Origin: a virus
Lineage: Duplodnaviria > Heunggongvirae > Uroviricota > Caudoviricetes
Virus record (IMG/VR): IMGVR_UViG_2531839448_000005
Span: 1-54,367 of that record
Length of the DNA: 54,367 nt
Strand: one strand, 5' to 3'
The position numbers and the translations under genes are program-made. The notes beneath the pieces are model-generated. The model had not been told where the DNA came from, did not search any database, and saw only the letters and a list, made by a program, of their open reading frames with translations. Below, one piece after another: positions 16,873 to 37,494 of this stretch. Position 1 is the stretch's first letter. Every line of letters starts with the position of its first letter.

Positions 16873-17609
16873 TTAAAGCGAACGGATGCCCACGCTGACC
16901 AGATGTTCAGACAGATCCAGCTCCGGTTCACCACCATTGACCAGCATCCGGCTCATTGCTGTAAACATCGCAACAGGGCCGTCGATTTTGGCTTCCAGCG
17001 TGGATTTATTCGGGAAGATATTGTCGTTTTTGTCCGGTTTTACCGTAACGTTAGACATCATCCAGTTCATGACCGGATGATTGCTGTGATGGAAACGCCC
17101 GGCATAGACCAGTGATTCCGTTTCCTTCATGGCCTCTGACAGATTGCGAACCGTCTGCGGAACCTCCACCAGCGGTATCCCTTCTTCAGCCAGTGCCAGG
17201 CTGAACTGCATCGCGCTCCACGGGTCAAATCCCAGTTCCCTGAGGTTTTCACCACCAATCCATTCCAGTAAGTCACTTTTTATCTGAGCATGATCGATAA
17301 CATCACCATCCGTCAGAATCAGCTTATCCATCTCCGCCCACTTCCGGTAAAGTTCTGCCTGCTGCCGCGAGCATCGTTCCAGCCGTCCTTCCGGAAGCCA
17401 GAATTTAAAATCGGCATGAACATGCCCGTTATCCGTTCGCCAGAGTTTTGCCGCCGCACAGATATCAATCTTATGAGCAAGGTCAACGCCGACCCACATG
17501 GGATACGTTTTCAGCTCATGTCGTGGGGCAATGTATTCGCACTTCTCCCACTTAATCATGTCCATCCAGGCAGACTCTGCTGTTACCCACACATTCATGT
17601 GTTTGGTAA
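16873..17609 (-). pseudogene. terL: terminase large subunit, C-terminal (nuclease) fragment of the resident prophage; separated from its 5' part by the 15 kb insertion
   Basis: ORF begins MNVWVTAESAW and aligns to the C-terminal third of the intact island terL (shared WxxSNV and KPNK motifs); in-frame stop lies immediately upstream inside the island. Confidence 0.85.
17603..17609. repeat. left junction core TTGGTAA (direct repeat with 32655-32661)
   Basis: identical 7 bp at both insertion junctions; flanks join to an in-frame terL. Confidence 0.6.
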
Positions 17610-17683
17610 GAATATTTCAAGTTTTTTAAAATCACCTGTATATCAATCATTTAACATGAAAAACAGTCTTTATAAATCATCGA

Positions 17684-17704
17684 GCAATACACAGCGCAAT
17701 ACAC
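17684..17704. repeat. tandem GCAATACAC arm-type repeat (copy 1)
   Basis: GCAATACACAGCGCAATACAC; near-identical copy at 32504-32524 just upstream of int. Confidence 0.5.
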
Positions 17705-17891
17705 GTATCTGTATTGTTTTAATGCTGATACACACCGTTTTTTGATACAGTGATTCGACCTACCATCGCGAAGCATTTTTATTTCTTGTGTGTAACAATC
17801 TGACGAGGTGAGCACTCAAAGAGATAAGAGGCAGTAGAAATTTCGATCCCCCCCCTGAATGCAATTTTTCGTATATATATATACAAAACAG

Positions 17892-18046
17892 TGCGGGTTA
17901 TGCGGGTTAGCGGGTTATCTTCGCGTGCTAAGTATTTTTTACTCTTTAATATCAATACGTTAAAAACAACGTATCTAAATATCAGCCAGAATGTAACCCG
18001 CAAGACATTCAAAATAACCCGCAAACACCACTCAAATAACCCGCAA
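17892..18046. repeat. iteron cluster A: 3 direct plus 3 inverted copies of GCGGGTTA(T) flanking an AT-rich spacer
   Basis: TGCGGGTTAT, GCGGGTTAG, CGGGTTATC at 17892-17919; TAACCCGCAA at 17994, 18014, 18036. Confidence 0.6.
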
Positions 18047-18125
18047 AAACATCCCTGAAAGTGGGTGCCGATAATACTGAAAATTTATTCCATTAAATGA
18101 GCATTGTCCTCTCTCATCCATTCCG

Positions 18126-19787
18126 TTACACACCATCAAACGTCGCAAGCCGCTCTTTGTGGCTGTCGCTCATATCGAATGCAAATTCCTCATGCTCTGC
18201 CTGGAATGTGCCAAACGCCATCAGCGCCGCAACGCTCGGGTCTATCTTGTTGGATGATTTTTTCTTGTTCGGCTTGATATTGGCGTTCGCGTCACTCTGC
18301 ATCACAACATTACTCATTGACCAGGCCAGCACCGGATCACCACGATGCACAATCACCTTCCGGTTAACAAAAACTTCGAACGATTTCGCCGCCGGACTGA
18401 AACGAAGGTACGTTTGCGGGAACGGCTCCACCTCAAATCCCGCCCCCTGTAGCTGTGTTCTCAGGTGAGTGGCGTTCCATGTATCGAAGCCCACCAGCCT
18501 GATACTGAAATTCTCTGCATCCACCATGATGTCATCACGGATACGGTCATAATCAATGCAGTCACCCGGTGTTGTGCGTATCCAGCCCGCCTTTACCCAC
18601 TGGCGATAAATGGCGCGGTTTTTATTGGCGGGGTTCTGTAACTGAAATTCCGGCAGATAGTGACGGGAAACCAGCATAATCTTTTTACCGACCGGAAAGG
18701 CATAGCACACGCTGGAAATATCGCTGGTTGATGATAAGTCCAGCCCCACGTAGCACTCCTGCCCGTATAAATCCGCCTCCGCGAACGTTCCGGCGCACTC
18801 CGCCCATGCACCGTTACCCATCCACGGCGTAGCCCCCTGACACCAGATATTGAATCGCTTGGTGAGCATTTCCACCCACTGCGACGGAATACCCCGCGCT
18901 TTCTGGATGGTTGAGGCCAGTTTTTCACGATCGACGGAAACATCGATATTGGGATTCGCCTTTATCCACATCGCCGGATCGTCAACCTCGCTTTCATCAT
19001 CCAGCTCGTAAATCAGTACGAACATGGATTCGTTCACCTCTTCACCATCCAGTATCTGGCAGCAATAGTCGTAGTGTTGTTTACAGGCTGAAACAACGTT
19101 GCTCCCCGATGTGGTGATGGCAAATAATAACCCCTCCGGACGCGCCCCCATTCCCAGTTCAAGCGCGGAATAAACCCCGTTGTCAGGGTGCAGGTGATAT
19201 TCATCTACAATGGCAAGACTCGGGTTTGTACCTTCAATGGTTGCCGCTTTTGCTGCCAGTGGCTTTAACAGGCTGTTGGTTTTCGGGTGTATCACCTTGT
19301 GTGCCTGAATATTTACCCGCTTTCGTAACGGTCGGGATAAAAGGCACATCTGACGCGCATCATCAAACACGATCCGCGCCTGATCACGACTCACGGCGGC
19401 GGTGTAAATATCCTGCTGCCCGTTTTCCATAACCAGAAACCAGTTAGCCAGGATAGCGGCGACCGTGGATTTGGCATTTTTTCGCGGTACTTCAATGAAT
19501 GCGCTGGTGTATTTGCGCCGTCCGGTGGCCTTAACCTTAAAGCCCAGGATGCACGCAAAGGCGAACTGCTGCCACGGCTCCAGCTCAATGGGGCTACCGC
19601 GCATTGCGCCTTTTACGTGCGGACACACCCTGGAAAAGGCAATAAACCGCTCCACGACCTCCGGATCGAACGTGTAAAGGGGGTTTTCAAGGTCAGAAAA
19701 ATACCGTTTAACGGCCTGTTTCAGTCGTTTACAGGCCGTAATTTTGCCGTTTTTTACGCCTTCTGCGTACTCATGCCAGGCGGTCAA
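18126..19787 (-). CDS. terL: terminase large subunit (island-encoded, intact)
   Basis: 553 aa; ATPase and nuclease regions homologous to the split resident terL. Confidence 0.85.
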   Translation of the reverse strand: MTAWHEYAEGVKNGKITACKRLKQAVKRYFSDLENPLYTFDPEVVERFIAFSRVCPHVKGAMRGSPIELEPWQQFAFACILGFKVKATGRRKYTSAFIEVPRKNAKSTVAAILANWFLVMENGQQDIYTAAVSRDQARIVFDDARQMCLLSRPLRKRVNIQAHKVIHPKTNSLLKPLAAKAATIEGTNPSLAIVDEYHLHPDNGVYSALELGMGARPEGLLFAITTSGSNVVSACKQHYDYCCQILDGEEVNESMFVLIYELDDESEVDDPAMWIKANPNIDVSVDREKLASTIQKARGIPSQWVEMLTKRFNIWCQGATPWMGNGAWAECAGTFAEADLYGQECYVGLDLSSTSDISSVCYAFPVGKKIMLVSRHYLPEFQLQNPANKNRAIYRQWVKAGWIRTTPGDCIDYDRIRDDIMVDAENFSIRLVGFDTWNATHLRTQLQGAGFEVEPFPQTYLRFSPAAKSFEVFVNRKVIVHRGDPVLAWSMSNVVMQSDANANIKPNKKKSSNKIDPSVAALMAFGTFQAEHEEFAFDMSDSHKERLATFDGV

Positions 19788-20127
19788 GCTCGTCCTCTTC
19801 CTCTGTTTCCGGTGGATTTCTGCGGCGACTTACCGGGTCAAAACCCAGCAAAGAAGCCATTTTGATCATTATTCTTTCAGCGTCAGCCTTTGCGCTCAGG
19901 GCGGGGTTTCTGCTCTCGCTGCCCTGACTGTTAACAATGCTGAACCCGCGCGTGGCAAGGTCTTCGACGGCTTTGCGGTATATGGAGTAGTTAACGCAAT
20001 ACAGCTCCAGATTGCTCCAGTCGGCGGGGGTAAGGTCTTCCCGTCCGGAAAGCTGGCGCGATTTTTCCTTCCACTGCCTGACCGCGATTTCATCCAGGTA
20101 AGCGGGGGCTTTTGGTGGTCTTGCCAT
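19771..20127 (-). CDS. terS: terminase small subunit (P27-like)
   Basis: start MARPPKAPAYLDE; homologous in outline to the resident terS at 33682-34164. Confidence 0.7.
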   Translation of the reverse strand: MARPPKAPAYLDEIAVRQWKEKSRQLSGREDLTPADWSNLELYCVNYSIYRKAVEDLATRGFSIVNSQGSESRNPALSAKADAERIMIKMASLLGFDPVSRRRNPPETEEEDELDRLA

Positions 20128-20246
20128 GTTCTTTTTTCGCCCAATTATTTTCAAAAAAATTCCCGTGCACAAAAATTTGAGGAGGCGGTCGGTGTCCGGC
20201 AGGGACGGTTTTGTCCTGAAAACCTCCCCCACCCCCTCTGACGGCC

Positions 20247-20423
20247 TCACCAGCGATTGCGAAAACATTCCATGACCTCGCGGTCACGGTCGGTTAATCG
20301 CTTCGCTGTGGTGCGTTCTGTGCGCCCTGTCCTGTTGGCTTTGTGCCCTGTCTCCTGTGTCTTCCATAAGTCACGCTGCCTTATCAGTCCACGTATCAGC
20401 CTGTTTTGCTCCTGTTCAGTCAT
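20247..20423 (-). CDS. hypothetical small protein
   Basis: 58-codon frame between HNH and terS; weak. Confidence 0.2.
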   Translation of the reverse strand: MTEQEQNRLIRGLIRQRDLWKTQETGHKANRTGRTERTTAKRLTDRDREVMECFRNRW

Positions 20424-20856
20424 CATCGCCATACATCCAGTCGTTACGGTGTGCCGCCCGTTCTTCCTGCTCGCGATACATACCCGCCTTACGGTTCGCT
20501 TTCGTGGCTGGATCTTCCCGTGTTGTCTTACGGTTATGGCACGTCTGGCACAATGCCTGGTGGTTCCACTCAGGCCAGAAGAGAACATCACCGCCGCCAT
20601 TGATGGGAATGATGTGATCCACCACAAGAGCTGGCGTATAAATCCCCTTAGCCAGACAACGCACGCATAACGGATTTTTGCTCAGGTACAGGGCGCGGTA
20701 TTTGTCCCACTGTCGGGAATACCCGCGCGCGCGGCGGTGTCCCCGTCTGGCATCCTCTGCACGCCATGCAGCCCGCCTGTGATCTTCGCACTTGCCGGAC
20801 TTCACGCGCTTATTACAGCCCGGCTCAGTGCATCGCCTTAATGGTTGCCACGGCAT
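20416..20856 (-). CDS. HNH endonuclease
   Basis: paired CxxC motifs plus HNH-like core DHIIPINGGG...NHQALCQTCHNRK. Confidence 0.8.
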   Translation of the reverse strand: MPWQPLRRCTEPGCNKRVKSGKCEDHRRAAWRAEDARRGHRRARGYSRQWDKYRALYLSKNPLCVRCLAKGIYTPALVVDHIIPINGGGDVLFWPEWNHQALCQTCHNRKTTREDPATKANRKAGMYREQEERAAHRNDWMYGDDD

Positions 20857-21155
20857 CAGTACACCCCTACATCACGATAAACCGACCAGAGCGCAGAAAT
20901 AGCCATAGGCAGTTCAGACTGCTCCACAGGTGAAACCGCTTCCCTGTTCTCGTACAGGAAAGCGATGTACATCAGGCAACCAACACGTATTGCCGGGGTA
21001 AATTCCAGCCCGTCTTCAAAACGTTTCCCGATATGCTTCTGGCAGGCTTCCAGCGCCGCATCGGTATACATTTTCAGAAGTTCGCCCTCACCTGAGAAGT
21101 CATCAAGGCGAAGATGTGCCCTGACTTCATCAGGTGTAATTTTTTCTTCACTCAT
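20856..21155 (-). CDS. head-tail connector protein (gp6-like)
   Basis: start MSEEKITPDEV; about 100 aa; similar in outline to the resident connector. Confidence 0.55.
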   Translation of the reverse strand: MSEEKITPDEVRAHLRLDDFSGEGELLKMYTDAALEACQKHIGKRFEDGLEFTPAIRVGCLMYIAFLYENREAVSPVEQSELPMAISALWSVYRDVGVY

Positions 21156-22362
21156 CTTTTTCACCTTTAATTTCCACCGTCTGCTTCCATGCCTGGCTGA
21201 ACTCGTCACCACCTTCACGCGGCGGCATCCCCTCACGTTCGCGGGCTTCGTTCGGATTCATGATCCCGTTCTTAATCCCTTTCTCATACGTGGCGTAACG
21301 CTCGGTTGGAGTAGCGCGCAGTAAATCGGCTGAATCAAACTCAACCAGATAACGGGTACCAGGTATGGGAGAAGCCACCAGCAAAGCGGCCTTAATTTGC
21401 TGTTCGAAGTTCGCCAGCCATGGGCGCATTGTCATGGTCAGAAACGCGCGGCTTGCCTCACTGAAATTGCTGTAGGTGCTGTTGCTGTATTCCTGAAGAA
21501 AAATCGGCGACACGTTGAACATCCGGGCGATGTCTTCAATGGAGAAGCGACGGGAGGCCAGCCATTCTGCATCCTGGTTACTCATCCCCAGTTGCTTGTA
21601 ATCCATACCCCCTTCAAGGATTGGCGTTTTTCCGGCATTTTTCGCCCCCTTGTAGCGTTCCAGGGCGTCTAATGCCTGTTTACCTTTCACGCCGTCCAGC
21701 CATTCGCCTGACGTGATAATCCCTGCCGCCATCATGCCATCTTTCATAATGCTGGCTCCGTGACGCTGTTGAGCAAGGCCAAGCCCCAGCGCCTCACGGC
21801 AAATCGTGACAGGGGAGCGCCCCAGAAAGCCATCATCCGAGGCATAGCGGAGATGCAGAACTTCTTCCTGCAAATACGTGCGCACCGTTCCTGTATAGGG
21901 TTCGGTGATGGTATAGCGGTATTTGTGTGCGCCAGTGCGTTCCGGTACAACACACCCCGGCGCATAAGGATGAAGTGATTTTGGCTGACCGTCCCGCCCC
22001 CACTCAATAACCGCATAGGCGTTACCGTTCAGCAGGCAGTGACGCATCATTGTGCGTTTAAACTGGTAAGGTGTCTGGCACGAATTAGGCTGCTCATTCA
22101 GCAGAATATCGACCGGGTGACTGTCCAGCCATTCCCGCGCCTCCCTGCCCTTGTCATTGCGTACCAGATACAGATAACACGGCATCGTGGCCACCGCCTC
22201 AGCGATGACAGAAACCGCGTTCATCACAGCAGGCAATGATTCAGCCGTCCCGGCAGAAACATATTCTCCGGATCCGGTATTCGGTACGCCGGACAGCGCC
22301 AGAAAATCATCAATGGACAGGTTACGCAGATCGCTTTTTTTACGACTAAAAGGCCACCACAT
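21148..22362 (-). CDS. portal protein
   Basis: about 405 aa from MWWPFSRKK; pattern resembles the resident portal. Confidence 0.75.
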   Translation of the reverse strand: MWWPFSRKKSDLRNLSIDDFLALSGVPNTGSGEYVSAGTAESLPAVMNAVSVIAEAVATMPCYLYLVRNDKGREAREWLDSHPVDILLNEQPNSCQTPYQFKRTMMRHCLLNGNAYAVIEWGRDGQPKSLHPYAPGCVVPERTGAHKYRYTITEPYTGTVRTYLQEEVLHLRYASDDGFLGRSPVTICREALGLGLAQQRHGASIMKDGMMAAGIITSGEWLDGVKGKQALDALERYKGAKNAGKTPILEGGMDYKQLGMSNQDAEWLASRRFSIEDIARMFNVSPIFLQEYSNSTYSNFSEASRAFLTMTMRPWLANFEQQIKAALLVASPIPGTRYLVEFDSADLLRATPTERYATYEKGIKNGIMNPNEAREREGMPPREGGDEFSQAWKQTVEIKGEKDE

Positions 22363-22363
22363 A

Positions 22364-22924
22364 TCACAACCCCGCCAGTTCAGCCCAGCGATGACGATTA
22401 TTTCCTGTCGGGCGTAATTCAGGGTGCTGTGCAAACAACGAACGGTGGGCAATCTCCACGCCGGATTCGGGATAAGCAGGCATCGACGTTATCGTGATTT
22501 CACGGAGTTCTGCGGCGGTAACAGTGCGCAGATACGGTTTTTGCGCGATATTCCACTCTTCGCATAATGCGCGAAAGCCAAAGCTCATTCCTGTAATGTC
22601 GCCACGCTCCACCAGCGTAAGCACATCTTTTCCAAGCTGGGTATCAGGCGGTGTCAGTTCAAAACGTAGCCCGGTGTTGTCCTCAGTCAGTACCAGTGTT
22701 CCGGATTTGGTGCGCCCCAGCAGTCGGGTATAGTCATGCTCATACAGGCAGCGCACATCATTACCCGCCGCCAGATAGTCAGCAAAAGCCCCCGGCGTGA
22801 ACTGTTCGCGGAATTCGTCCCAGATAATTTCTGAAAGGCTGTTCCAGCGAACGGCATACCCCACCAGCTTTTTATTGCTGGCGGTCAGTTCAGATGTGCG
22901 GATTTCAAAATCGGTGTTTTTCAT
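22364..22924 (-). CDS. prohead protease (HK97 / peptidase U35-like)
   Basis: 186 aa; GYAVRW, YEHD and GMSFGF motifs. Confidence 0.7.
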   Translation of the reverse strand: MKNTDFEIRTSELTASNKKLVGYAVRWNSLSEIIWDEFREQFTPGAFADYLAAGNDVRCLYEHDYTRLLGRTKSGTLVLTEDNTGLRFELTPPDTQLGKDVLTLVERGDITGMSFGFRALCEEWNIAQKPYLRTVTAAELREITITSMPAYPESGVEIAHRSLFAQHPELRPTGNNRHRWAELAGL

Positions 22925-22978
22925 CGGTGTACTCCATAAAGCTGAAAAAGGAGGCCGCAGCCTCCTCCTTACTCATGA

Positions 22979-24148
22979 CTAGCCAGCTTTCATTTCCAGA
23001 ATTTTGATGGCGTTTGAATCCACCACACCACCGCCCAGATATTTATCCGTGTGGACCTTGTAGAATCCGGGTTCAGTAATGTTGTCCGGTCGGGTGCGAA
23101 TCCCTGTTACATGATCAACGATGAAATAACCACGACTGAAATCGCCAACCGCTAGCGGTGCTTTTCCTGCGCCGATGTCCGGCATGGACTCCAGGCAGAA
23201 AACAGGACGACCAAGCAACATATCCGGCGCACCTTCTTTAAGGCTGTCGCGCCAGATATAATCGCCATTCTCATTTTTCAGCTTCTGTAGTGTCCCTGCC
23301 GTGCCCGAGTTCATCACCCAGACGGCATTTTTGCGGTATTTCGCTTTCAGCTTGTAGAGAATGTCGATCAGTTCGTCCGCTGTAATGGCGGTTCCACTTG
23401 CCGCTACCACTTTTTCAATGGTGCCAAAAGCGCGGGTTTTGTCACTGGTCGCCGCACGGGTGTAAGCCATGAAGCCTTTCGGCTTGCCGTTACCGTCGCC
23501 ATTAACAAAATCATCCTCTTCGGTGCTGGCGAACGTGTCGGCAATTTCGGAGGATAACCAGCCCAGAATATCCACCTCTGAAAAATCCAGGATTTCCTGC
23601 GTGGTTTTCGGGTAGGCGTAGATCGGATTCAGCTTGATGGTTACACGTTCAATTTTCGGGGTGTTGGTTTCACTACGTGCGCTGCCTTCTGTGCCTCGTC
23701 CTACAGTTGCGCCGCCAGTGGAAACCAGTTTCTGAAACTCATTTGATTTTGCGGTCTTCACGGTCGCGATCACGCGCATAACACTGTCATCCTGTAGCTG
23801 GCGCATGACTTCGCGATCAAGCTCAGGAATTACGGTATATCCGCCATCCCTGCCGCTGTCAGTGCTGGTGGACAGTGATCGCACATCTCCGGTTACGATG
23901 TAGTTACGCAATTCATCAGATGATAATTTCTGGATGCCCGTTCCTGGCTTGCTGCGTTCTTCATCAGCCACAGACTCGAGGCGGTAAATTTCTGTGTCGA
24001 GGGAATCGGCTTTTGCACGCAGTTCATCAAACTGTTTGCCCTCGTCATCGTTCAGGCTGCGGTTTTCACTGTCGGCTTTTTCCAGCAGGGATCGCATCTG
24101 GTTTTTCAGGGCGGTTTTTTGCTGGCGGAGTTCGATTAATTTCTTCAT
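22979..24148 (-). CDS. major capsid protein, HK97 family
   Basis: 389 aa; coiled-coil N-terminus; GDGNGKPKGFMAY and DSNAIK motifs parallel the resident capsid protein. Confidence 0.85.
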   Translation of the reverse strand: MKKLIELRQQKTALKNQMRSLLEKADSENRSLNDDEGKQFDELRAKADSLDTEIYRLESVADEERSKPGTGIQKLSSDELRNYIVTGDVRSLSTSTDSGRDGGYTVIPELDREVMRQLQDDSVMRVIATVKTAKSNEFQKLVSTGGATVGRGTEGSARSETNTPKIERVTIKLNPIYAYPKTTQEILDFSEVDILGWLSSEIADTFASTEEDDFVNGDGNGKPKGFMAYTRAATSDKTRAFGTIEKVVAASGTAITADELIDILYKLKAKYRKNAVWVMNSGTAGTLQKLKNENGDYIWRDSLKEGAPDMLLGRPVFCLESMPDIGAGKAPLAVGDFSRGYFIVDHVTGIRTRPDNITEPGFYKVHTDKYLGGGVVDSNAIKILEMKAG

Positions 24149-24422
24149 GAAGGTTTTCTCGTATTGGTTAAGATTCAGGACGTGAAACCAACACGGAGGG
24201 AGCGCCGCCCGACACTCTCGGCATCTCGCAGATCAACCCGGCATCGCGCAGGGGGTCAGGCGGCATTGTGGCGGCTCACGTCTGAGTGCCACACGCCAAC
24301 ATATACATAAAAATCAGTATGTAAACATCAGCCAGAATCACCGAACAACCTGGAACAACCACGAACAAATAATTTACAAAACCTGAAAAAAAGACCTGGA
24401 GAAAATCCAGGCCTTTATCGCT

Positions 24423-24671
24423 TTATTGTTTCACTGGATCCCGCATTCTGCGTCTTATTTTCCACAGATATTCGATCATCGCTTCCACCTGCTCACGATT
24501 GGTTGCGAAAATTTCCCCGGTCAGTGAGCTGCGCAGAAAATCATGATGATCCACAACAAACAACGCATCGGAAGAAAGCAGACGGCGATATTTTTTTGCT
24601 GTCGTGGTTTCCAGATCATCAAAACCATGAAACTTTTTATGTTGCTGGACTTCTTCAAATGTCACTGGCAT
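24423..24671 (-). CDS. hypothetical protein
   Basis: 82 aa ORF. Confidence 0.35.
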   Translation of the reverse strand: MPVTFEEVQQHKKFHGFDDLETTTAKKYRRLLSSDALFVVDHHDFLRSSLTGEIFATNREQVEAMIEYLWKIRRRMRDPVKQ

Positions 24672-25204
24672 GTATCCCCCTTTGCCGCCCGGCGCTGGCG
24701 CTTGTGCTTCTCATTCAGCGCCATCAGCCGCGTTTCTGCCTCCTGCTGTTCCTGTGGTGTCACTTCCCCACATGGCTGGCCTTTCAGGTCGTATCGTACC
24801 CCACCAGCAACCAGGGCGCGGTAATAGCGCGGAGACTGCGCATAAGATGCCAGCGTCGCACGTAATGCCCCCGGCCCGAATGCCAGCCCCCTGACGGCGA
24901 GATCCTGCATCAGGTCGTCGAATATCCCCACCTTAAGCGGCTTCGGTGCTTCCCTGTTGAATAAGTCAGGCCACATCTCAGTGAGGCGGTTAACGCGCCT
25001 GCGGTTTTTGCGCTGGCGTTTGGTCATATGCCGCCACGGTGTCACCCCTGTGGGCTGCCCTTTGCGGCTCTGCTGTGCGTTCTGATTGCCGGGTATCACT
25101 TTATGCGCCGATGTGGTTTTATCCCGCTCTTGCGCCGCCTGCGTCGTTTTCTGCGGCGTGCCGTAAATGCCTTTCGGTTTTCGGTTAATGGTCAGCTTTG
25201 TCAT
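24662..25204 (-). CDS. ProQ/FinO-domain RNA-binding protein
   Basis: LKVGIFDDL...ALRATLASYAQSPRYYRALVAGGVRYDLKGQPCGEVT aligns by eye to the E. coli ProQ N-terminal domain as recalled. Confidence 0.6.
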   Translation of the reverse strand: MTKLTINRKPKGIYGTPQKTTQAAQERDKTTSAHKVIPGNQNAQQSRKGQPTGVTPWRHMTKRQRKNRRRVNRLTEMWPDLFNREAPKPLKVGIFDDLMQDLAVRGLAFGPGALRATLASYAQSPRYYRALVAGGVRYDLKGQPCGEVTPQEQQEAETRLMALNEKHKRQRRAAKGDTCQ

Positions 25205-25368
25205 GCCTTCCCCTGTAATTACTCTGTTCGCTGTTGTGAATTAAAACGGTATGTTATCCCCGTACAGGTCATCGTGCTGGCCTGTCTGTTGTTTTGCCCT
25301 GTTCAGTGCGTCAGTGGCCTGCCCCTGTTGGCCTTTTTTGCCGCCCGGTCGCGCCGTTCTCGCACTGA

Positions 25369-25665
25369 TTACGCTGTCTGCGATGACCTGCCAGCCCTGC
25401 CGCGTTTCGCCGTTCTGCCCTGTCCACTGCTTACCTGCATGTTACCCGCCACGCTCACCAGTTCGCCTTTGCGGTGTTTTGCCAGTGCGTCGGCCTGTCT
25501 GCCAAACGCCAGGACGGATAACCACATCGTCGCCGTTCCGTCATCTGCCTGGCTGCATGGCAGGGGAACCGCCATACTCGCCATCGCCATTTGTGTTCCC
25601 TTGCTGGTGGTCTTTAACTGCGGGTCAGCCACCAGCCGCCCGTAAGCCGCTATCTGTGCTGTCAT
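25369..25665 (-). CDS. SSB-like OB-fold protein (tentative)
   Basis: 98 aa; pattern GRLVADPQL...WLSVLAFGRQADAL...GELVSVAGNMQV resembles an SSB core. Confidence 0.35.
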   Translation of the reverse strand: MTAQIAAYGRLVADPQLKTTSKGTQMAMASMAVPLPCSQADDGTATMWLSVLAFGRQADALAKHRKGELVSVAGNMQVSSGQGRTAKRGRAGRSSQTA

Positions 25666-25728
25666 GCTGTCTGCTCTCCGGTTTTAACGTTGATGGTTAC
25701 GCTTGTTTACACCCTTACGGTGAAATTC

Positions 25729-25854
25729 TGCGGGTTATAATCGCACTTTTGCGGGTTATAACTGCCGTTTTGCGGGTTACGTGCGGGTTATTGATTTCCT
25801 TTTTATTCATACAGTTAATGCACTTATATACATGATAACCCGCATAACCCGCAA
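25729..25854. repeat. iteron cluster B: 4 direct plus 2 inverted copies of TGCGGGTTA(T) flanking an AT-rich spacer; candidate replication origin
   Basis: copies at 25729, 25751, 25771, 25782 (direct) and 25835, 25845 (inverted); immediately 3' of the primase gene. Confidence 0.6.
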
Positions 25855-25875
25855 CTTTTCACCTCACACAGGGGG

Positions 25876-27999
25876 TTAATCTTCTGCCTCAGGCTGGAAC
25901 ATCAGCACGTAAAAAACATGCTGCTTCCCCCCAATTTTGCCGAGCGCCTTTTTCTTGTAACGGCGATCGTTACCCGCTTCCAGCATTCCGGCAGCACTCA
26001 ACGCGCGGGCAAAGTGAGACGGATTAAATCCCTGTGCTATCTCACCCTCAAATACATGCGGGAACGTGTAAAAACGGAACTCGTCATCTTCGTTTCTGAT
26101 ACTCCCCTTTCTGTATCCGGCAAGTTCTTTAATCGATAAATCACGCTCGTCGGTATTGGGCCACGGAAGGTATCTGCTGAATCCGAACGACGCTAAAAAA
26201 GCTTCTGCCTGTTCAACCATCTGTTTAAATTCCCTGTTACCCGTGCCGAACTCCTTCACCCAGGCATTAAAATTATGCTGTATGGCATCGCGGCATTCCT
26301 GCTCATCCCAGCCAGTAACATGACCTGAAAGCACAAGCGCGGCCTCCAGTATGGCAAATCGCTCCCCCACACGGTGAACCTGTTCGCCGTAGCTCTCCGG
26401 TATCAGGTTGCGCCACCGCTCACGGCATGTCCTTACCGTGTCCTTTGCCTCCTGCTGGTGTTCTGCCAGCCATTTAACCCACTCACGACCCGCCGCCCCG
26501 TGATTTTCTGTCCAGGCATCCTTTAACGCGTCTGCGTGCGCCTTTCCGGTGCTGTATTCGTGAAATTGCGTGGCTTTTTCCATCGGAACGTTAAGCAGGC
26601 GGACAAGCTGCCCCGCTTTGACTTTTATCCCCTCCGTTTTGAGGAATGTCTCAACGTCCATTTCTCCGGTGCTGATTGCCACCGTGCGCCAGTGTTTGAT
26701 CTCCCTGTTGCCGCCGTCCTTCGCCCCCTGTAATTTCCCCGAACCGTTAAACAGCGTATAGGCTGACGTGGACACCTCCCGCGCGTTTCCGGCCTGGCCT
26801 ATTTCATCCAGGGGTAAAAGCCCGTCATTGTGTGCCTCTGCTTCGTTGGCGATACCTAACGCTGTGCCGTACCAGGTCAGCCGCTGCGCGTCCGGCTCTC
26901 CCCATAAACTTGATGCGATGTTCTGTGTGGTGGTTTTCCCTGCCGATGACTGTTCGAAAAGATGTACCCCGAAGCCGTCAGCGCCCACCAGCCCGATTAA
27001 TGGTGCGGATAACGATACCGCCACACCCAGCATCATGGACGGATTACCACCAGCCAGCCGCGCAACGGTATCGCGCCAGCCCTCCGCCGTTCCTGCCACG
27101 GAATAGCCATTAACAGCAGCCGTTTTTCCGGTAAACAGGACTGGCTTTTCGCAATCACCAATGACCGAACCGTCCGGCATGATGTACGCGCCAAAATGCC
27201 AGCCCGTTGTTGTGCTTAACTGCCATTCCTCATGGCTTCCGCTTAACTGCATCCAGTCAGCCAGGATAGCCCTGTATTTACCGTTGGTTGTTACGTTCAG
27301 TCCGTGGTCTTTCAGCAACCGCCAGCCGTCACGGTCGCCAATGCCACCGCACGGAACCGCCATTGTGATGACTTCATGGTTTGCTAATTTTTTCCAGCGC
27401 ATCACGCGGTAATGCTCTTTACCGATTGTCCCCGTTCCCAGTAGTTCAAGCGGGGAACATAACCACGTCTCAGGCCGGATAATTTCGCCTGACTGCTTAT
27501 CCACTTTTGGCGTTACCCAGAAAACACCATCGGCGCGACTTTCAACGCGGGGCTTTAATTCATCATCGCCCTGGATTTCTGTGATTTTTTTCTTTAAGGG
27601 CAACACCAGACTTTCCCCGCGCTCGTATTCGTCTTTGAGGCGAGGCAACTGGTCGGATAAATCCGCCGGGCTGATGTCAGTTATCCCCGCGTATTCGTAT
27701 ACGGTCTTCACGCCAGCCACAGCCAGCAACGTGACGATCTGTGTAAGGCTACGTTCAGTGATGTGCCCTGCGCGGTAAACACGCACACACTGACGGCTAT
27801 CATCAATAATTTGATAACCGGTAATATCTTTCAGGTGTTCATCTGACAGAACGACAGGCGGCACATTGTCGGCGGCAATATGCTTACCTGCCCATTCCTG
27901 CCACTCTTTCGCATGGCTCCACGCATCACTACCCGCAAAGATGATAACCTCCGTCATTTTGTCGGCTGGCTGGTGCTTTAAGTTTGGTGCGCGCTTCAT
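25876..27999 (-). CDS. primase / replication protein (P4 alpha-like, DUF927-type)
   Basis: 707 aa; central Walker-like GEPDAQ...SSAGKTT region; adjacent iterons. Confidence 0.6.
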   Translation of the reverse strand: MKRAPNLKHQPADKMTEVIIFAGSDAWSHAKEWQEWAGKHIAADNVPPVVLSDEHLKDITGYQIIDDSRQCVRVYRAGHITERSLTQIVTLLAVAGVKTVYEYAGITDISPADLSDQLPRLKDEYERGESLVLPLKKKITEIQGDDELKPRVESRADGVFWVTPKVDKQSGEIIRPETWLCSPLELLGTGTIGKEHYRVMRWKKLANHEVITMAVPCGGIGDRDGWRLLKDHGLNVTTNGKYRAILADWMQLSGSHEEWQLSTTTGWHFGAYIMPDGSVIGDCEKPVLFTGKTAAVNGYSVAGTAEGWRDTVARLAGGNPSMMLGVAVSLSAPLIGLVGADGFGVHLFEQSSAGKTTTQNIASSLWGEPDAQRLTWYGTALGIANEAEAHNDGLLPLDEIGQAGNAREVSTSAYTLFNGSGKLQGAKDGGNREIKHWRTVAISTGEMDVETFLKTEGIKVKAGQLVRLLNVPMEKATQFHEYSTGKAHADALKDAWTENHGAAGREWVKWLAEHQQEAKDTVRTCRERWRNLIPESYGEQVHRVGERFAILEAALVLSGHVTGWDEQECRDAIQHNFNAWVKEFGTGNREFKQMVEQAEAFLASFGFSRYLPWPNTDERDLSIKELAGYRKGSIRNEDDEFRFYTFPHVFEGEIAQGFNPSHFARALSAAGMLEAGNDRRYKKKALGKIGGKQHVFYVLMFQPEAED

Positions 28000-28310
28000 T
28001 TTGCCTTTCCCCGTTCACGAATAATTTCACGTACTGCCTTAATGCGTTCCATTCCTGTAACGCGCATGATTCTGTCGATGTCGCTTAATTCTGCTGGTGG
28101 TGCTTTACTTACCAAGGTGAACTCCCTGTCAAAGCGCATATGTGACGACACGCAGGGATGCGCATAACCTTCGCGGATATAGGTCACACGAAAATCATCG
28201 ACGGTTTTGATCGTTATCGTGCTGCCGTATTTATCCTGGAAAATATCGCCGGGGCGGATTTCAGGCCGAGCGGGGCCGCTGGCAGTAAAGCCAGAATTTT
28301 TCTTTTTCAT
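27996..28310 (-). CDS. hypothetical protein
   Basis: 104 aa ORF overlapping the primase start. Confidence 0.4.
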   Translation of the reverse strand: MKKKNSGFTASGPARPEIRPGDIFQDKYGSTITIKTVDDFRVTYIREGYAHPCVSSHMRFDREFTLVSKAPPAELSDIDRIMRVTGMERIKAVREIIRERGKAK

Positions 28311-28315
28311 GTTTT

Positions 28316-28564
28316 TTACTCCAGAGGCAGCTTTTTAGCGGCGAGCTCAATATCAGATGTCAGAGAAACCTGTGTATTTGCCAGGTCTAACAACAAAGAA
28401 ATAAGAATTTCTTCTCTGCTATCGGATTTATCGGTGCTAAGGCTGTTCATCCACATATTGACGACTTCCCTGATTTTTTTCGCAGAGTGCAGGGCTTCAA
28501 ATGCCAGGTCTTCAATATCATGTTTATTTCGCATAATCGCCCCCGCCATTTTCACAATCAGCAA
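28316..28564 (-). CDS. hypothetical protein
   Basis: 82 aa ORF. Confidence 0.3.
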   Translation of the reverse strand: MLIVKMAGAIMRNKHDIEDLAFEALHSAKKIREVVNMWMNSLSTDKSDSREEILISLLLDLANTQVSLTSDIELAAKKLPLE

Positions 28565-28769
28565 TCAGGATGGCTTTTGCCTCATTCAGCGCCATATCAG
28601 CACTAAATTGCATAACAGCCAGTGAGTGAGGAACGAAAGCCCCGGCATATTCTGTTTCGCTGGTGGCGTGCTTATGCGCCTTGTCTGCGATAACAGAAAT
28701 ATCAATCAGCGCGTGCATCAGCGTTTTGATGGCTTCGGCGGCTGCGTCCGGACGGGTGTTATTGCACAT
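28524..28769 (-). CDS. hypothetical protein
   Basis: 81 aa ORF. Confidence 0.3.
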   Translation of the reverse strand: MCNNTRPDAAAEAIKTLMHALIDISVIADKAHKHATSETEYAGAFVPHSLAVMQFSADMALNEAKAILIADCENGGGDYAK

Positions 28770-29073
28770 GGCGCACCTCCTGACGAATACGGGCAGCGAA
28801 TACCATCACGCAGCCAGCCGGGGATTGCTGGCGTGCTTCCTGTTCGCTAGTGGCCTCAATGGTAATCACACGCGGTTGTGCCGTGCTCAGGGCGATAAAA
28901 CGCCAGATGTATTTATTCAGGTTGTGCGAGTCCCGCCCTTGCGGGTGTGTGGTATGATTTAACATAGCTACCTCGATAATCTTGCTATCGTTGGTGGTTA
29001 GAAGCCCGGTTAGTGTTAGCGCACTGCCGGGTTTCGTCGTTTGTATTTCAATAAAACCATTGGTGTGTTTCAT
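28759..29073 (-). CDS. hypothetical protein, first gene of the island leftward operon
   Basis: manual call: ATG at 29071-29073 inside the operator motif, 105 codons; the 393 aa track ORF is a read-through artefact. Confidence 0.35.
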   Translation of the reverse strand: MKHTNGFIEIQTTKPGSALTLTGLLTTNDSKIIEVAMLNHTTHPQGRDSHNLNKYIWRFIALSTAQPRVITIEATSEQEARQQSPAGCVMVFAARIRQEVRHVQ

Positions 29074-29150
29074 GTTATTTTGGAGTGAAACACACGTCAA
29101 GCCTTTTTTGTATTTCTTTTTTGTGTATACTGAAACACACCAAATTTGAG
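29050..29150. promoter_or_regulatory. divergent promoter region with three copies of operator-like motif TGAAACACAC / GTGTGTTTCA
   Basis: copies near 29055-29068, 29083-29096 and 29138-29150 between divergent genes. Confidence 0.5.
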
Positions 29151-29161
29151 GAGTTTCAGTT

Positions 29162-29467
29162 ATGGCGACTACCAACAAAAACGCTAAATCACAATTGACC
29201 ACCGTCAGAGTCCCCCACGATGTTATGGAGGGCATGGAATCCGTAAAACTGGACGGCGAAAGCAACGCCGGATTCATAGTAACCGCCATGCGCGGTGAGA
29301 TCGCCCGCCGCCAGGCAGAAGGAAGCGGAGAAAATCCCCTGGTTTCTTCGCTCGATGCACTGGCGCAGGTGGAAAAAATTGGAGTCAAGGCTGCCGAGGA
29401 GATCGGGCAACTCGTCACCGTCGCGCGTGAAGAACTCCAGCGACGCAAGGTCAAAGAGCAGGAATAG
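29162..29467 (+). CDS. hypothetical protein, candidate island regulator
   Basis: 101 aa ORF divergent from the island operon, directly downstream of the operator triplet. Confidence 0.4.
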   Translation: MATTNKNAKSQLTTVRVPHDVMEGMESVKLDGESNAGFIVTAMRGEIARRQAEGSGENPLVSSLDALAQVEKIGVKAAEEIGQLVTVAREELQRRKVKEQE

Positions 29468-29524
29468 CCACTATCAGCGCCATAGTTTGAGGAACGCAGG
29501 CGCATTGCTTTACAGGACAGCACC

Positions 29525-29704
29525 ATGAGCGACACAGAATCAACCAAAACACCATCACCAACTCGTAAGAGACGACGCAAAAATATAGCGCATGAACATG
29601 AATCAGAAAGATTCGCACCTTGTTCGTTTGCTCTTGAGAAATTCCTTAAAGAGCACAGGAAAAAGCTCTCGTTGCAAACCTTGGAACGAACCAAATCTGA
29701 CTGA
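29525..29704 (+). CDS. small basic protein
   Basis: manual 59-codon ORF MSDTESTKTPSPTRKRRRKN; below the track length cutoff. Confidence 0.25.
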   Translation: MSDTESTKTPSPTRKRRRKNIAHEHESERFAPCSFALEKFLKEHRKKLSLQTLERTKSD

Positions 29705-29770
29705 TCACATTGCCCACCAGCCGCAAATGTGGCATTGTTGGTGATGCTTTTGTTTTCCCTTGTTCCCACT

Positions 29771-29800
29771 GGCGACCCTTTTGCGGTCGCCTTTGTTTTG
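29771..29800 (+). terminator. rho-independent terminator
   Basis: GGCGACC/GGTCGCC stem followed by TTTGTTTTG. Confidence 0.6.
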
Positions 29801-29892
29801 CCTGTTATCCGGCAATAGTGGCGCTTCGTCACCTGTCTGATATAATTCCACAGCTTATATTCATTTTTTGCGCAGTAGGTTAATTGTTCGCA

Positions 29893-29926
29893 AGGGCGCT
29901 CCGGCAACGGGGCGCTTTTTGTTTTT
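29893..29926 (+). terminator. rho-independent terminator
   Basis: GC-rich hairpin followed by TTTTTGTTTTT. Confidence 0.5.
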
Positions 29927-30084
29927 ACCCACCAGCACAATAAAAATCTTCATTTTCCATTTTTGTAAAATTTCATGCTTTCCGGACGACTGGTCATATG
30001 TCATTTTTTAGCAGAAGATTTTGCCTTGCTGGTGGGTAGCTTCCCGGTCAACACGATGTACCGTATAATCAACACCGCGTGTGG

Positions 30085-30663
30085 TTACTGAATACGCTCA
30101 CCAAAGTAAAACTCAGGCTGGTATTCACGTATCAGCCTTTTTTCTTCTTCCTCCAGCTCACGCTTTTTGCGCTTACATGCCTGTAGCTCCCTCCCCTTCT
30201 CACTGGCACTTATCTGGTATTGCTCTTTGCGGCGGGAAAAATCCTGTAATGCGCCCCACGGGATACCATAAGCCCCCGTTTTTCTGATACCCGGTATCAC
30301 ATTTCTGAATACCCAGTTACTGAAACGATGAGCAAATGTGCCAGGCGTCGTTGCTTTGCGGCTGCGGGCTATTAGTTTGTAGAAACCTGACTCGGAGATA
30401 ATGCTCATATTCTGATTTCCTCCGGGGGTGTAAGTTAAATTTACTCCCTTTTCGTCATCATCAAGCATCTGCAACGCCGTACGCGAATTGGTCAATTCCA
30501 GCGCAGCACAAACATCCTTTGCAACAAACCACGGATCGCCGTTTAGATACACCACACGAACATCCACGCCATCAAAGCGCAGAACGACCAGATCACGAAT
30601 ATCACAGAATTTTTTCACATGACGTGCGTCACCCTTGCCCGTCACGGCAATATTTTTATTCAT
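30085..30663 (-). CDS. Bro-N domain protein (antirepressor-like)
   Basis: N-terminal Bro-N-like pattern RVVYLNGDPWFVAKDVCAAL...ESGFYKLI...FSNWVFRNVIPGIRKTGAYG. Confidence 0.65.
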   Translation of the reverse strand: MNKNIAVTGKGDARHVKKFCDIRDLVVLRFDGVDVRVVYLNGDPWFVAKDVCAALELTNSRTALQMLDDDEKGVNLTYTPGGNQNMSIISESGFYKLIARSRKATTPGTFAHRFSNWVFRNVIPGIRKTGAYGIPWGALQDFSRRKEQYQISASEKGRELQACKRKKRELEEEEKRLIREYQPEFYFGERIQ

Positions 30664-30720
30664 TGCTTTTTACCTCACATACAAAAAACCCCGCATTGCG
30701 TGGTGCGGGGTTGTCGGTAA

Positions 30721-30999
30721 TTACTTATTGGCGTTTTTGTATGGGCTGTTTACTTCCTTTACTCCTGGCGGATGCATAACCCACCAGAGCACATCAGAGA
30801 GCAACCAGGAAACAGACACTTTCCCTAAATGAGCACGAGCAGGAAATGCTCCCTCCTGTTCAAGTACCCAACGTCTGCTTCTTGAAAGCCCGGTACGATT
30901 GGCACACTCATGTTCGCGTATACGGCGATCATACGGTTCGCCATGATCTTTCAGAATCTGAATGCGTTCTTCGGGTGTAGGATAAATAAATTTTTGCAT
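30721..30999 (-). CDS. AlpA-like small regulator (tentative)
   Basis: start MQKFIY; small basic protein adjacent to alpA. Confidence 0.4.
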   Translation of the reverse strand: MQKFIYPTPEERIQILKDHGEPYDRRIREHECANRTGLSRSRRWVLEQEGAFPARAHLGKVSVSWLLSDVLWWVMHPPGVKEVNSPYKNANK

Positions 31000-31062
31000 A
31001 AAAATATCACCTATAAAAAAACCCGCCAAAAGACGGGTTGATTATATCTCATTTAATTTAGC

Positions 31063-31296: not shown

Positions 31297-31329
31297 TAAT
31301 TTGCTTATTCAGATAGTCGTACCACCAGT

Positions 31330-32483: not shown

Positions 32484-32503
32484 GTGATTTATAACCCGTT
32501 TTT

Positions 32504-37419: not shown

Positions 37420-37494
<75 letters not shown>

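What the first reader, a model, noticed from the sequence alone, without database searches (positions are those of the whole stretch)
17892..18046. Second copy of the same iteron architecture 7.8 kb away, downstream of the island terL
Three direct and three inverted copies of the same GCGGGTTA(T) motif flank an AT-rich segment containing the small palindrome ACGTT...AACGT, between the terL stop and the left end. Two separated clusters of one iteron recall the ori plus cis-replication-region pair of P4. Alternatively this copy could be part of the packaging site, given its position next to the terminase genes.
Basis: inference. Interest (0 to 1): 0.6.

Follow-up and report, generated by a model that had tools for sequence, protein, structure and literature searches.

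The report
Displaced half of a satellite replication origin
The repeat cluster is real and is most likely the second half of the two-part replication origin of a phage satellite island, moved 7.8 kb from its partner to the island's end; it is not a DNA-packaging signal, and the finding is a modest new variation on a known kind of origin.

Summary
GCGGGTTA occurs three times directly (17893-17917) and three times inverted (17994-18044) around a 70% AT spacer. The same 8-mer forms a second cluster at 25730-25852, directly 3' of the island's DUF927 replication helicase gene. The island is a 15,052-bp capsid-forming PICI embedded in the terL gene of an HK97-like prophage, which is a known configuration. 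The cluster next to rep (module B) is the canonical PICI origin. The queried cluster (module A) is its mirror-image partner. In the prototype EcCIEDL933 and in 37 of 69 Rep-homologue loci across Enterobacterales, A and B lie side by side. In the window and in seven or eight other loci they are separated by 0.3-9 kb. More than ten iteron classes exist. The distal cluster always carries the cognate iteron, and iteron class tracks the Rep C-terminal domain. Module A also has its own conserved features: a (TA)n tract after the tight iterons, and in E. coli an invariant IHF-core match. It is therefore most likely a Rep-bound origin unit that works like P4 ori/crr without being homologous to it. The packaging-site and integrase-arm readings are rejected. 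One thing is unexplained: "orphan" A modules occur in islands with P4-type replicons. Function has not been tested.

The parts
17872..17883 (.). (TA)6 tract flanking the tight iterons; candidate DNA-unwinding element of module A
   Evidence: The 20-mers overlapping this tract are the least stable in 17840-18080. The tract is invariant in 36 unique E. coli A modules. TATATA lies about 11 nt after the tight iteron triple in 23 of 36 A-type modules of other iteron classes, against 0.6% of background windows.
17893..17917 (+). Three tightly packed direct GCGGGTTA iterons (starts 17893, 17902, 17910)
   Evidence: The first two copies are invariant in all 36 unique homologous modules.
17918..17993 (.). 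AT-rich spacer (70% AT) containing an IHF-core match, TATCAATACGTTA, at 17950-17962
   Evidence: The IHF core WATCARNNNNTTR is at the same place in 36 of 36 unique E. coli A modules (in one of them shifted by an indel). Only 10 matches occur in the whole window on both strands.
17994..18044 (-). Three inverted GCGGGTTA iterons spaced 21-22 bp apart (starts 17994, 18015, 18037)
   Evidence: The two copies nearest the spacer are invariant.
25730..25852 (.). Module B, the canonical rep-proximal origin: four direct iterons (25730, 25751, 25772, 25783), a 45-bp spacer of 76% AT, and two tight inverted iterons (25836, 25845)
   Evidence: Its position directly 3' of rep matches the published PICI ori organisation (PMC6092414).
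25876..27999 (-). Rep, a DUF927 initiator-helicase of 707 aa; its C-terminal ~110 aa is the likely iteron-recognition domain
   Evidence: Pfam DUF927, E=5.8e-46. Match to PDB 8tch 'Pathogenicity island protein', E=3e-15, and to 5dgk 'Active helicase'. C-terminal domain swap with a change of iteron in L074.
18126..19787 (-). Island terL, the last gene before module A
   Evidence: TerL_ATPase and TerL_nuclease domains.
17603..17609 (.). Left att core, TTGGTAA; the partner core is at 32655-32661, giving an island unit of 15,052 bp
   Evidence: Substitutions relative to NZ_OZ282453.1 co-vary at both cores (17605/32657 and 17608/32660). The prophage terL fragments flank the island at 16873-17598 and 32489-33682.
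17684..17704 (.). Candidate integrase arm-type sites, GCAATACACAGCGCAATACAC; a partner copy lies at 32504-32524 upstream of int
   Evidence: The motif differs from GCGGGTTA and is present on both arms.
20128..20250 (-). Candidate island cos region: a G-rich gap between the HNH-side small ORF and terS
   Evidence: Its organisation resembles the helper prophage HNH-terS gap at 34165-34312. Placing an HK97-type cos in the gap upstream of terS rests on established knowledge of HK97. This assignment is an inference.

Best explanation
The cluster (module A) is a binding array for the island's own DUF927 Rep helicase. It is one of the two mirror-image units of a bipartite satellite replication origin. 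Each unit has at least two iterons on either side of an AT-rich stretch, pointing in opposite directions. This is the arrangement on which SaPI-type Rep hexamers are thought to self-load. Module A additionally carries a (TA)n tract directly after its tight iterons, which is the most easily melted DNA in the region, and in E. coli an IHF-consensus site in its spacer. In most relatives A abuts module B just downstream of rep. In this island the block from ssb to terL lies between them, so A sits at the far end of the island. After excision it would lie about 0.3 kb from attP, roughly opposite B on the 15-kb circle. I infer that after induction Rep binds both modules. A then acts either as a second initiation site or as a cis-acting partner that contacts B by DNA looping, as P4 ori and crr do. 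Shown here: the sequence anatomy, the homology and adjacency in relatives, the co-variation of iterons, and the link between Rep C-terminal domain and iteron class. Inferred: Rep binding, melting, and any contribution to replication.
For: The motif is strongly enriched and falls into two clusters. In EcCIEDL933 the homologous module (L002 17020-17150) lies directly next to the rep-proximal module (17211-17333) and is inverted relative to it. Among IMG/VR islands, 13 are adjacent type and 8 are split type, always with the same order and relative orientation. In 69 Rep-homologue loci from Enterobacterales with more than ten iteron classes, 37 have an adjacent double module. Seven or eight have a second cluster of the same iteron 0.3-9 kb downstream. 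None has a truly non-cognate cluster: all 16 control hits are register shifts of the cognate iteron. The distal modules of the TGAACCAAC class have the same anatomy, namely spaced copies, AT spacer, tight triple, then TATATA. The L074 Rep is 92-100% identical to the window Rep over residues 1-550, but its last ~110 residues are replaced and its iteron differs. GTGGGTTA-class Reps keep a similar C-terminal domain. Rep belongs to the SaPI Rep/Cch helicase family, whose C-terminal winged-helix domain binds iterons downstream of rep (PMC9371898). The core iterons, the (TA)n tract and the IHF core are invariant across 36 unique modules whose spacers diverge. There are no DnaA boxes, which fits a self-loading initiator.
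Against: No binding or replication data exist. Twenty-five of 69 relatives show only the rep-proximal module within the 10 kb examined, so A is not universally needed. Intact GCGGGTTA A modules also sit at the distal end of islands whose Rep is a P4-type primase-helicase with different iterons of its own (GTAGACAG, GGTAGAGG, TGTTCACC). The module can therefore persist without a cognate Rep in cis. The AlphaFold model of the Rep C-terminal domain was too poor to confirm a winged helix.
Confidence: 0.72

Rival explanations
1. Module A is an evolutionary relic: a displaced or orphaned half-origin carried along by recombination, with no present function in this island.
For: Orphan A modules exist in islands with unrelated P4-type replicons. 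Twenty-five of 69 relatives lack a detectable second module. PICIs are highly mosaic, as shown by the Rep N-terminal and C-terminal domain swaps.
Against: The two tight iterons, the two spaced iterons, the (TA)n tract and the IHF core are invariant in 36 unique sequences whose spacers and flanks diverge to about 80% identity. Split arrangements with cognate iterons recur in at least two or three iteron classes and in several genera. Order and orientation are always preserved.
Confidence: 0.1
2. Module A is mainly a Rep-controlled regulatory element, with a promoter in the (TA)n region and the tight iterons acting as its operator. In adjacent-type islands it would drive the downstream ssb and late genes. 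In split-type islands it would read outward, across attP into int, only after circularisation.
For: The tight triple, an ~11-nt stretch, TATATA and an A-run are conserved across iteron classes. In adjacent-type islands a ribosome-binding site and an ATG follow about 20 nt after the TATA tract. The TATA end always faces co-directional downstream genes.
Against: (TA)n lacks the conserved T at position 6 of a sigma-70 -10 hexamer. The promoter scan found nothing on the relevant strand. In the split type the nearest downstream gene, int, is about 0.45 kb away and is reachable only in the circular form. There are no transcript data.
Confidence: 0.1
3. Module A is part of the island's packaging (cos/pac) signal, read by the island's TerS/TerL/HNH.
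For: In this window it lies 80 bp beyond the terL stop. In several cf-PICIs, including some with a different Rep, it lies downstream of terL.
Against: In the experimentally characterised cf-PICI EcCIEDL933 the homologous module is next to rep, about 6 kb from terS/terL. The module also occurs in islands without terminase genes, both Rpp-type and others, where cos lies upstream of rpp (PMC9026076). Its repeat sequence co-varies with Rep and not with the terminase. The HK97-type cos position, the HNH-terS gap, holds a G-rich region like that of the helper prophage.
Confidence: 0.04
4. The repeats are binding sites for integrase arm domains or for an excisionase (AlpA), and form part of attP.
For: The module lies about 260 bp from the att core, on the arm distal to int. 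In lambda, that arm carries the Xis, IHF and arm-type sites. An IHF-core match is present.
Against: A different repeat, GCAATACAC x2, is found on both arms and is the better candidate for the arm-type site. The same GCGGGTTA module occurs with different integrases and integration sites (prophage terL, clpS/cspD, dinD) and, in the adjacent type, in the middle of the island far from att.
Confidence: 0.02

Closest known systems
[quoted passage not shown] 2018, PMC6092414; Qiao et al. 2022, PMC9371898)
   Same: There are two sets of short iterons in opposite orientation around an AT-rich stretch. The Rep belongs to the same helicase family (PDB 8tch match). The iteron is identical to that of the rep-proximal origin.
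   Different: The published origins are described as one unit immediately 3' of rep. Here the origin is bipartite, and this unit lies 7.8 kb from rep at the island end. The unit also has its own (TA)n tail and an IHF-consensus site.
Satellite phage P4 ori plus crr (cis replication region)
   Same: Two separated clusters carry one iteron recognised by the element's own initiator-helicase. One cluster lies directly 3' of the initiator gene and the other is kilobases away. Both mix tight and inverted copies. P4 is also a satellite with attP nearby.
   Different: The initiator is of a different family (P4 alpha is a P4-family primase-helicase; here it is DUF927). The iteron differs (TGTTCACC). In P4 the unit next to the gene is crr and the distal unit is ori, whereas here the roles are unknown. 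In most relatives of this island the two units are adjacent.
Iteron-plasmid origins (pSC101, R6K gamma, P1 oriR)
   Same: Helically phased iterons (21-22 bp) lie next to an easily melted AT tract, with an IHF-consensus site between elements.
   Different: There are no DnaA boxes. The initiator is itself a hexameric helicase and not a RepA/Pi-type dimer-monomer initiator. The iterons are only 8 bp long.
Helper-embedded PICI (HE-PICI) at site A:Terminase_1:245 (Mageeney et al. 2023, PMC10111431) and capsid-forming PICI EcCIEDL933 (bioRxiv 10.1101/2022.09.08.507074)
   Same: The island sits in, and is co-oriented with, the prophage terL gene. It carries int, alpA-type regulators, rep, capsid, protease, portal, connector, HNH, terS and terL. 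Its TerL is 93% and its Rep 83% identical to those of EcCIEDL933.
   Different: These papers do not describe a second or displaced iteron module. In EcCIEDL933 both modules sit together next to rep.

Membership tests
PICI/SaPI-type Rep-iteron origin | At least two iterons on each side of an AT-rich region, pointing in opposite directions | tested here: met
   Three direct and three inverted GCGGGTTA copies lie around a 76-bp spacer of 70% AT.
PICI/SaPI-type Rep-iteron origin | Located immediately 3' of the rep gene | tested here: not met
   Module A is 7.8 kb from rep, whereas module B (25730-25852) meets this feature. In EcCIEDL933 and in 37 of 69 relatives the A-type module does lie within about 300 bp of rep.
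PICI/SaPI-type Rep-iteron origin | Iteron specific to the cognate Rep | tested here: met
   Distal clusters always carry the rep-proximal iteron across classes, and no truly non-cognate cluster appeared. Iteron class tracks the Rep C-terminal domain. Exception: orphan modules occur in P4-type-Rep islands.
PICI/SaPI-type Rep-iteron origin | Rep binds and melts the site, and the site supports replication | not testable with these tools
   This needs EMSA or footprinting and plasmid or island replication assays.
P4 ori/crr system | P4 alpha-type primase-helicase initiator | tested here: not met
   Rep matches DUF927 and SaPI Rep/Cch, not the P4-family primase model. The BH100-type Rep, by contrast, does match TIGR01613.
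P4 ori/crr system | Type-1 iteron TGTTCACC | tested here: not met
   The iteron here is GCGGGTTA. TGTTCACC is found in P4 and in islands L047 and L052 only.
P4 ori/crr system | Two separated clusters of the same iteron, one directly 3' of the initiator gene | tested here: met
   The window clusters are at 25730-25852 (24 bp from the rep stop) and 17893-18044. In P4, crr is at 4291-4590 and ori at 9086-9809.
P4 ori/crr system | Both clusters required in cis for replication | not testable with these tools
   Deletion analysis is required.
HK97-type cos site | Lies in the gap between the HNH gene and terS, and is associated with the terminase module | tested here: not met
   Module A is downstream of terL here, next to rep in EcCIEDL933, and present in islands without terminase genes. 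A G-rich candidate cos lies at about 20128-20250.
Integrase arm-type sites of attP | Same short repeat on both arms flanking the core, specific to the integrase | tested here: not met
   GCGGGTTA is absent from the int-proximal arm. GCAATACAC x2 is present on both arms. The module occurs with other integrases and integration sites.
Iteron-plasmid origin (DnaA-dependent) | DnaA boxes next to the iterons and the AT-rich element | tested here: not met
   No DnaA box with up to one mismatch occurs in 17600-18130 or 25640-25880.
Helper-embedded, capsid-forming PICI (context of the finding) | Island with int, alpA and rep plus its own capsid, protease, portal, connector, HNH, TerS and TerL, inserted in and co-oriented with a prophage late gene | tested here: met
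   Pfam hits. The RefSeq annotation of a 99.9% identical copy agrees. Split prophage terL fragments flank the island. The site A:Terminase_1:245 is published.

The most novel reading that the evidence does not exclude
Module A is a portable, separable origin unit made of an easily melted tract, an IHF site and Rep iterons. It works at a distance from the rep-proximal unit through Rep-mediated looping. Its orphan copies in islands with unrelated P4-type replicons would be trans-replication handles, letting those satellites be amplified by the Rep of a co-resident DUF927 satellite. This would be cross-exploitation between satellites, one level above satellite-helper parasitism.
Probability: 0.15. 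Interest if true: 0.7.

Novelty: new variant of a known kind. Interest (0 to 1): 0.45.

Why it matters
PICI origins are described as a single iteron/AT-rich/iteron unit just after rep. The evidence here indicates that the DUF927-Rep replicon of enterobacterial satellites, including the prototype capsid-forming PICI, has a two-unit, mirror-symmetric origin. The distal unit can be moved kilobases away without losing its cognate iterons. If it is functional, this gives a natural series of adjacent, 0.3-kb, 0.6-kb and 5-9-kb variants for asking how self-loading MCM-like helicases use two loading sites, and whether they communicate by looping as in P4. It also matters in practice. Engineered PICIs built from "rep plus the adjacent ori" may lack half of the natural origin. 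And iteron matching gives a simple way to pair Rep C-terminal domains with their DNA sites.

Tried and rejected
- **Packaging site.** Rejected on the position of the module in relatives and on its co-variation with Rep.
- **Integrase arm site.** Rejected because a different repeat marks both arms.
- **Lambda-like cosN left of the module.** I briefly suspected one in the BH100 and MS196 islands. I dropped the idea because published Rpp-type PICI cos sites lie directly upstream of rpp.
- **RNA gene or terminator.** Rfam at a permissive threshold gave only a weak symR-like hit elsewhere, and the terminator scan found nothing.
- **Sigma-70 promoter at the (TA)n tract.** No consensus match on the relevant strand. 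Kept only as a low-probability rival.
- **DnaA boxes.** None found.
- **Phage and plasmid collections.** The module is absent from both, apart from one 66-bp fragment.
- **Literature search for the motif.** Only unrelated primer sequences turned up.
- **Rep N-terminal domain as the GCGGGTTA reader.** This would have explained the orphan modules. It is rejected because L074 has an identical N-terminal part, a different iteron and no GCGGGTTA cluster.
- **AlphaFold model of Rep from 52 sequences.** pLDDT was below 50 for residues 585-707, so no fold search was run and the winged-helix assignment rests on family knowledge only.
- **Island ends in L092, L099, L106 and L126.** I tried tRNA searches, direct repeats and Pfam on neighbouring genes. 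The results were uninformative, so I cannot say that those distal modules sit at island ends.
- **IHF core as a general feature.** It was found in only 7 of 38 modules of other iteron classes, so it is specific to the E. coli class.

Full report
**1. Observation**

Exact GCGGGTTA occurs at 17893, 17902 and 17910 on the + strand and at 17994, 18015 and 18037 on the - strand. The window holds 17 copies against 1.4 expected from dinucleotide-preserving shuffles (maximum 5). Twelve of them fall in two clusters. The other cluster is at 25730, 25751, 25772 and 25783 (+) and at 25836 and 25845 (-).

The spacer 17918-17993 is 70% AT, against 50% for the island. The two clusters are mirror images. The queried cluster reads tight copies (8-9 bp apart), AT spacer, then copies 21-22 bp apart. 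The other reads 21-bp-spaced copies, AT spacer, then tight copies. The 18-mer TGCGGGTTATGCGGGTTA at 17892-17909 is the exact reverse complement of 25836-25853.

**2. Context**

Every gene from about 17.6 to 32.7 kb is on the - strand. They encode:
- a tyrosine integrase;
- two AlpA-type helix-turn-helix proteins;
- a Bro-N protein, an Icd-like protein and a DUF4222 protein;
- a 707-aa DUF927 protein;
- ssb (frameshifted) and a ProQ/FinO protein;
- then a major capsid protein, prohead protease, portal, connector, HNH, TerS and TerL.

This is a capsid-forming PICI. Its TerL is 93% and its Rep 83% identical to those of the prototype EcCIEDL933.

The island is inserted in the terL gene of an HK97-like lambdoid prophage. 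The nuclease part of that gene is at 16873-17598 and the ATPase part at 32489-33682. The att core TTGGTAA lies at 17603-17609 and 32655-32661. Substitutions relative to a 99.9% identical copy in NZ_OZ282453.1 co-vary at both cores, which fixes the island unit at 15,052 bp.

Helper-embedded PICIs at a site in the terL cognate (A:Terminase_1:245) are already published (PMC10111431). The context is therefore known biology.

**3. What the rep-proximal cluster is**

The DUF927 protein matches the solved chain 8tch ('Pathogenicity island protein', E=3e-15) and the chain 5dgk ('Active helicase'). In the SaPI Rep family a C-terminal winged-helix domain recognises the iterons, and hexamers are thought to load on either side of the AT region (PMC9371898). 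I call the cluster at 25730-25852 module B. It is the canonical origin.

**4. What the queried cluster is**

I call the queried cluster module A. Searching E. coli genomes with it gave 300 genomes.

In EDL933 the homologous sequence is not near terL. It lies directly beside module B, just downstream of rep: A at L002 17020-17150 and B at 17211-17333. A scan of IMG/VR with the tight-pair 17-mer returned 69 loci. Thirteen of them have A and B about 300 bp apart. Eight have them 8-11 kb apart, as in the window. Order and relative orientation are always the same: A lies on the side of B away from rep. The split form is therefore equivalent to placing the ssb-to-terL block between the two halves of a composite origin.

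**5. Co-variation**

A scan of GTDB species genomes with an alignment of Rep homologues gave 80 loci across Enterobacterales. The region after rep carries different iterons in different lineages, including GTGGGTTA, ACGGGTTA, TGAACCAAC, TGAGACAAC, TGGGACAAC, GAACCGAC, TGGTACAAC, GTGTGTCA and GTCGGGTA. Sixty-nine loci had a clear proximal iteron. They divide as follows:
- 37 have an adjacent double module of about 12 iterons, in the order tight 2, AT, spaced 4-5, spaced 2-3, AT, tight 3.
- Seven have a second cluster of the same iteron further downstream: L077 at +0.3 kb, L141 at +0.6 kb, L099 at +4.8 kb, L092 at +7.2 kb, L106 at +8.8 kb, L126 at +9.0 kb, and L091, which looks like tandem islands. 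An eighth, L107 at +5.9 kb, appeared only in the register-shift control.
- 25 show only the proximal module within the flank examined.

I searched every locus with the iterons of all other loci. This gave 16 clusters in 1449 tests, and all 16 are register shifts of the cognate iteron. No truly non-cognate cluster was seen. The distal modules of the TGAACCAAC class have the anatomy of module A.

The E. albertii Rep (L074) is 92-100% identical to the window Rep over residues 1-550. It falls to 40%, 34% and 14% identity over the last ~110 residues, and its iteron differs. GTGGGTTA-class Reps keep 60-74% identity in that domain although their N-terminal parts are only 30-58% identical.

Together these results show that both modules carry the recognition sequence of the island's own Rep, and that the Rep C-terminal domain is the specificity determinant. 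Binding itself is inferred.

**6. Features specific to module A**

Across 36 unique E. coli modules, several elements are invariant while spacers and flanks diverge:
- two tight and two spaced iterons;
- the (TA)n tract;
- an IHF-core match (WATCARNNNNTTR; window 17950-17962).

The 20-mers overlapping the (TA)6 tract (17872-17883) are the least stable DNA in the region. In other iteron classes the tight triple is followed, after about 11 nt, by TATATA and an A-run in 23 of 36 modules, against 0.6% of background windows. The IHF core is not general, occurring in 7 of 38 modules of other classes. There are no DnaA boxes.

Module A thus looks like a complete origin unit with its own unwinding element. 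It is not a degenerate copy of B.

**7. Alternatives**

*Packaging site.* This is contradicted by the position of the module in EcCIEDL933 and by its presence in islands that lack terminase genes (L003, which has an Rpp-like protein, and L004). It is also contradicted by the published location of Rpp-type cos directly upstream of rpp. The G-rich gap between the HNH-side ORF and terS (about 20128-20250) resembles the corresponding gap of the helper prophage. It is where HK97-type cos sites lie, which is established knowledge of HK97.

*Integrase arm sites.* A different repeat, GCAATACAC x2, is found on both arms.

*RNA gene or terminator.* Nothing was found.

*Promoter in the (TA)n tract, controlled by Rep.* This remains possible. 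In adjacent-type islands the next gene starts about 20 nt downstream. However, the tract is a poor sigma-70 -10 element and the scan was negative.

**8. An unexplained point**

Intact GCGGGTTA A modules also sit at the distal end of islands whose Rep is a P4-family primase-helicase. Each of these islands has a complete proximal iteron array of its own: GTAGACAG in L003, GGTAGAGG in L045, and TGTTCACC in L047 and L052, which is the P4 type-1 iteron.

In E. coli, A is found in 300 genomes and B in 252 of 5426. These orphans may be leftovers of replication-module swaps, since a split arrangement makes such swaps likely. They could also be used in trans by a co-resident DUF927 island. I could not test co-residence.

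The N-terminal ~140 residues shared by the two Rep types do not explain the orphans. L074 has the same N-terminal part as the window Rep but no GCGGGTTA cluster.

**9. Comparison with known systems**

P4 (X51522) has crr at 4291-4590, directly 3' of alpha and next to attP. Its ori lies at 9086-9809, 4.5 kb away. Both hold the type-1 iteron in tight and inverted groups. The window's pair works like this on paper. But the initiator family and the iteron differ, so it is not a member of the P4 system.

It meets the anatomical definition of a PICI/SaPI origin unit except for position. Neither the PICI papers I read nor a text search for the motif turned up a bipartite or split origin. I therefore rate it a new variant of a known kind, of moderate interest.

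**10. Limits**

Everything about function is inference from sequence comparison. The AlphaFold model of Rep was poor in the C-terminal domain. The 10-kb flank limits the 'single module' class. The island ends in the non-E. coli split loci were not located.

Noticed in passing
window 16873-17598 and 32489-33682 (prophage terL fragments); island 17610-32661: The capsid-forming PICI is inserted inside, and co-oriented with, the terL gene of an HK97-like lambdoid prophage. This splits terL into an ATPase part and a nuclease part, and matches the published helper-embedded PICI site A:Terminase_1:245.
   Followed up: yes
window 31340 and 31587 (int); also 17659, 17776, 17962: Relative to a 99.9% identical island in NZ_OZ282453.1, the window has single-base deletions. 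Two of them frameshift the integrase gene. The result is either an immobilised island copy or homopolymer assembly errors. The ssb gene (about 25251-25665) is also annotated as frameshifted in the related record.
   Followed up: partly
window 25853-25875 (between the rep stop and the first iteron); same position in L075, L078, L094, L099, L106 and L126: A short motif, CACAYGYGAGG, is conserved just after the Rep stop codon and before the first tight iteron in Rep homologues of different iteron classes. It is a perfect palindrome, CCTCACATGTGAGG, in L106 and L126. Its function is unknown.
   Followed up: no
L047 8869-9082 and L052 8850-9063: Capsid-forming PICIs whose P4-family Rep is followed by nine copies of TGTTCACC, which is exactly the type-1 iteron of satellite phage P4. 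A P4-type replicon is thus combined with a cf-PICI packaging module, and these islands also carry an orphan GCGGGTTA module after terL.
   Followed up: partly
L074 10001-12136 (Escherichia albertii): The Rep is 92-100% identical to the window Rep over residues 1-550, but its last ~110 residues are replaced and the downstream iteron is changed to a TGGGACAAC-like sequence. This is a natural domain swap that maps iteron specificity to the C-terminal domain.
   Followed up: yes
window 28966-29038 (+): A weak Rfam match to the SymR antitoxin RNA (33.6 bits, below the gathering score of 61; E=0.0046). It lies antisense to the 5' part of the Icd-like gene and may be an antisense regulatory RNA. The 393-aa ORF at 28759-29940 is probably spurious read-through of the short Icd-like gene.
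   Followed up: no
window 20128-20250 and 34165-34312: The gaps upstream of terS in the island and in the helper prophage share an organisation: a G-rich run, a CGCC-rich stretch, then a T-run. They are candidate cos sites for two HK97-type packaging systems reported to be mutually exclusive.
   Followed up: partly
window 27579-27999 (Rep residues 1-140) compared with L003 18585-19004: DUF927-type and P4-type Reps share a mosaic N-terminal domain of about 140 residues (37-75% identity). It is exchanged independently of the helicase and DNA-binding parts. It was modelled with good confidence (pLDDT 75-90), but no function could be assigned.
   Followed up: partly
window 37420-37729: A cluster of four tRNA genes (Gly, Thr, Lys, Met) lies inside the prophage, just after its Q antiterminator gene (37924-38619) in the direction of transcription (- strand).
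   Followed up: no
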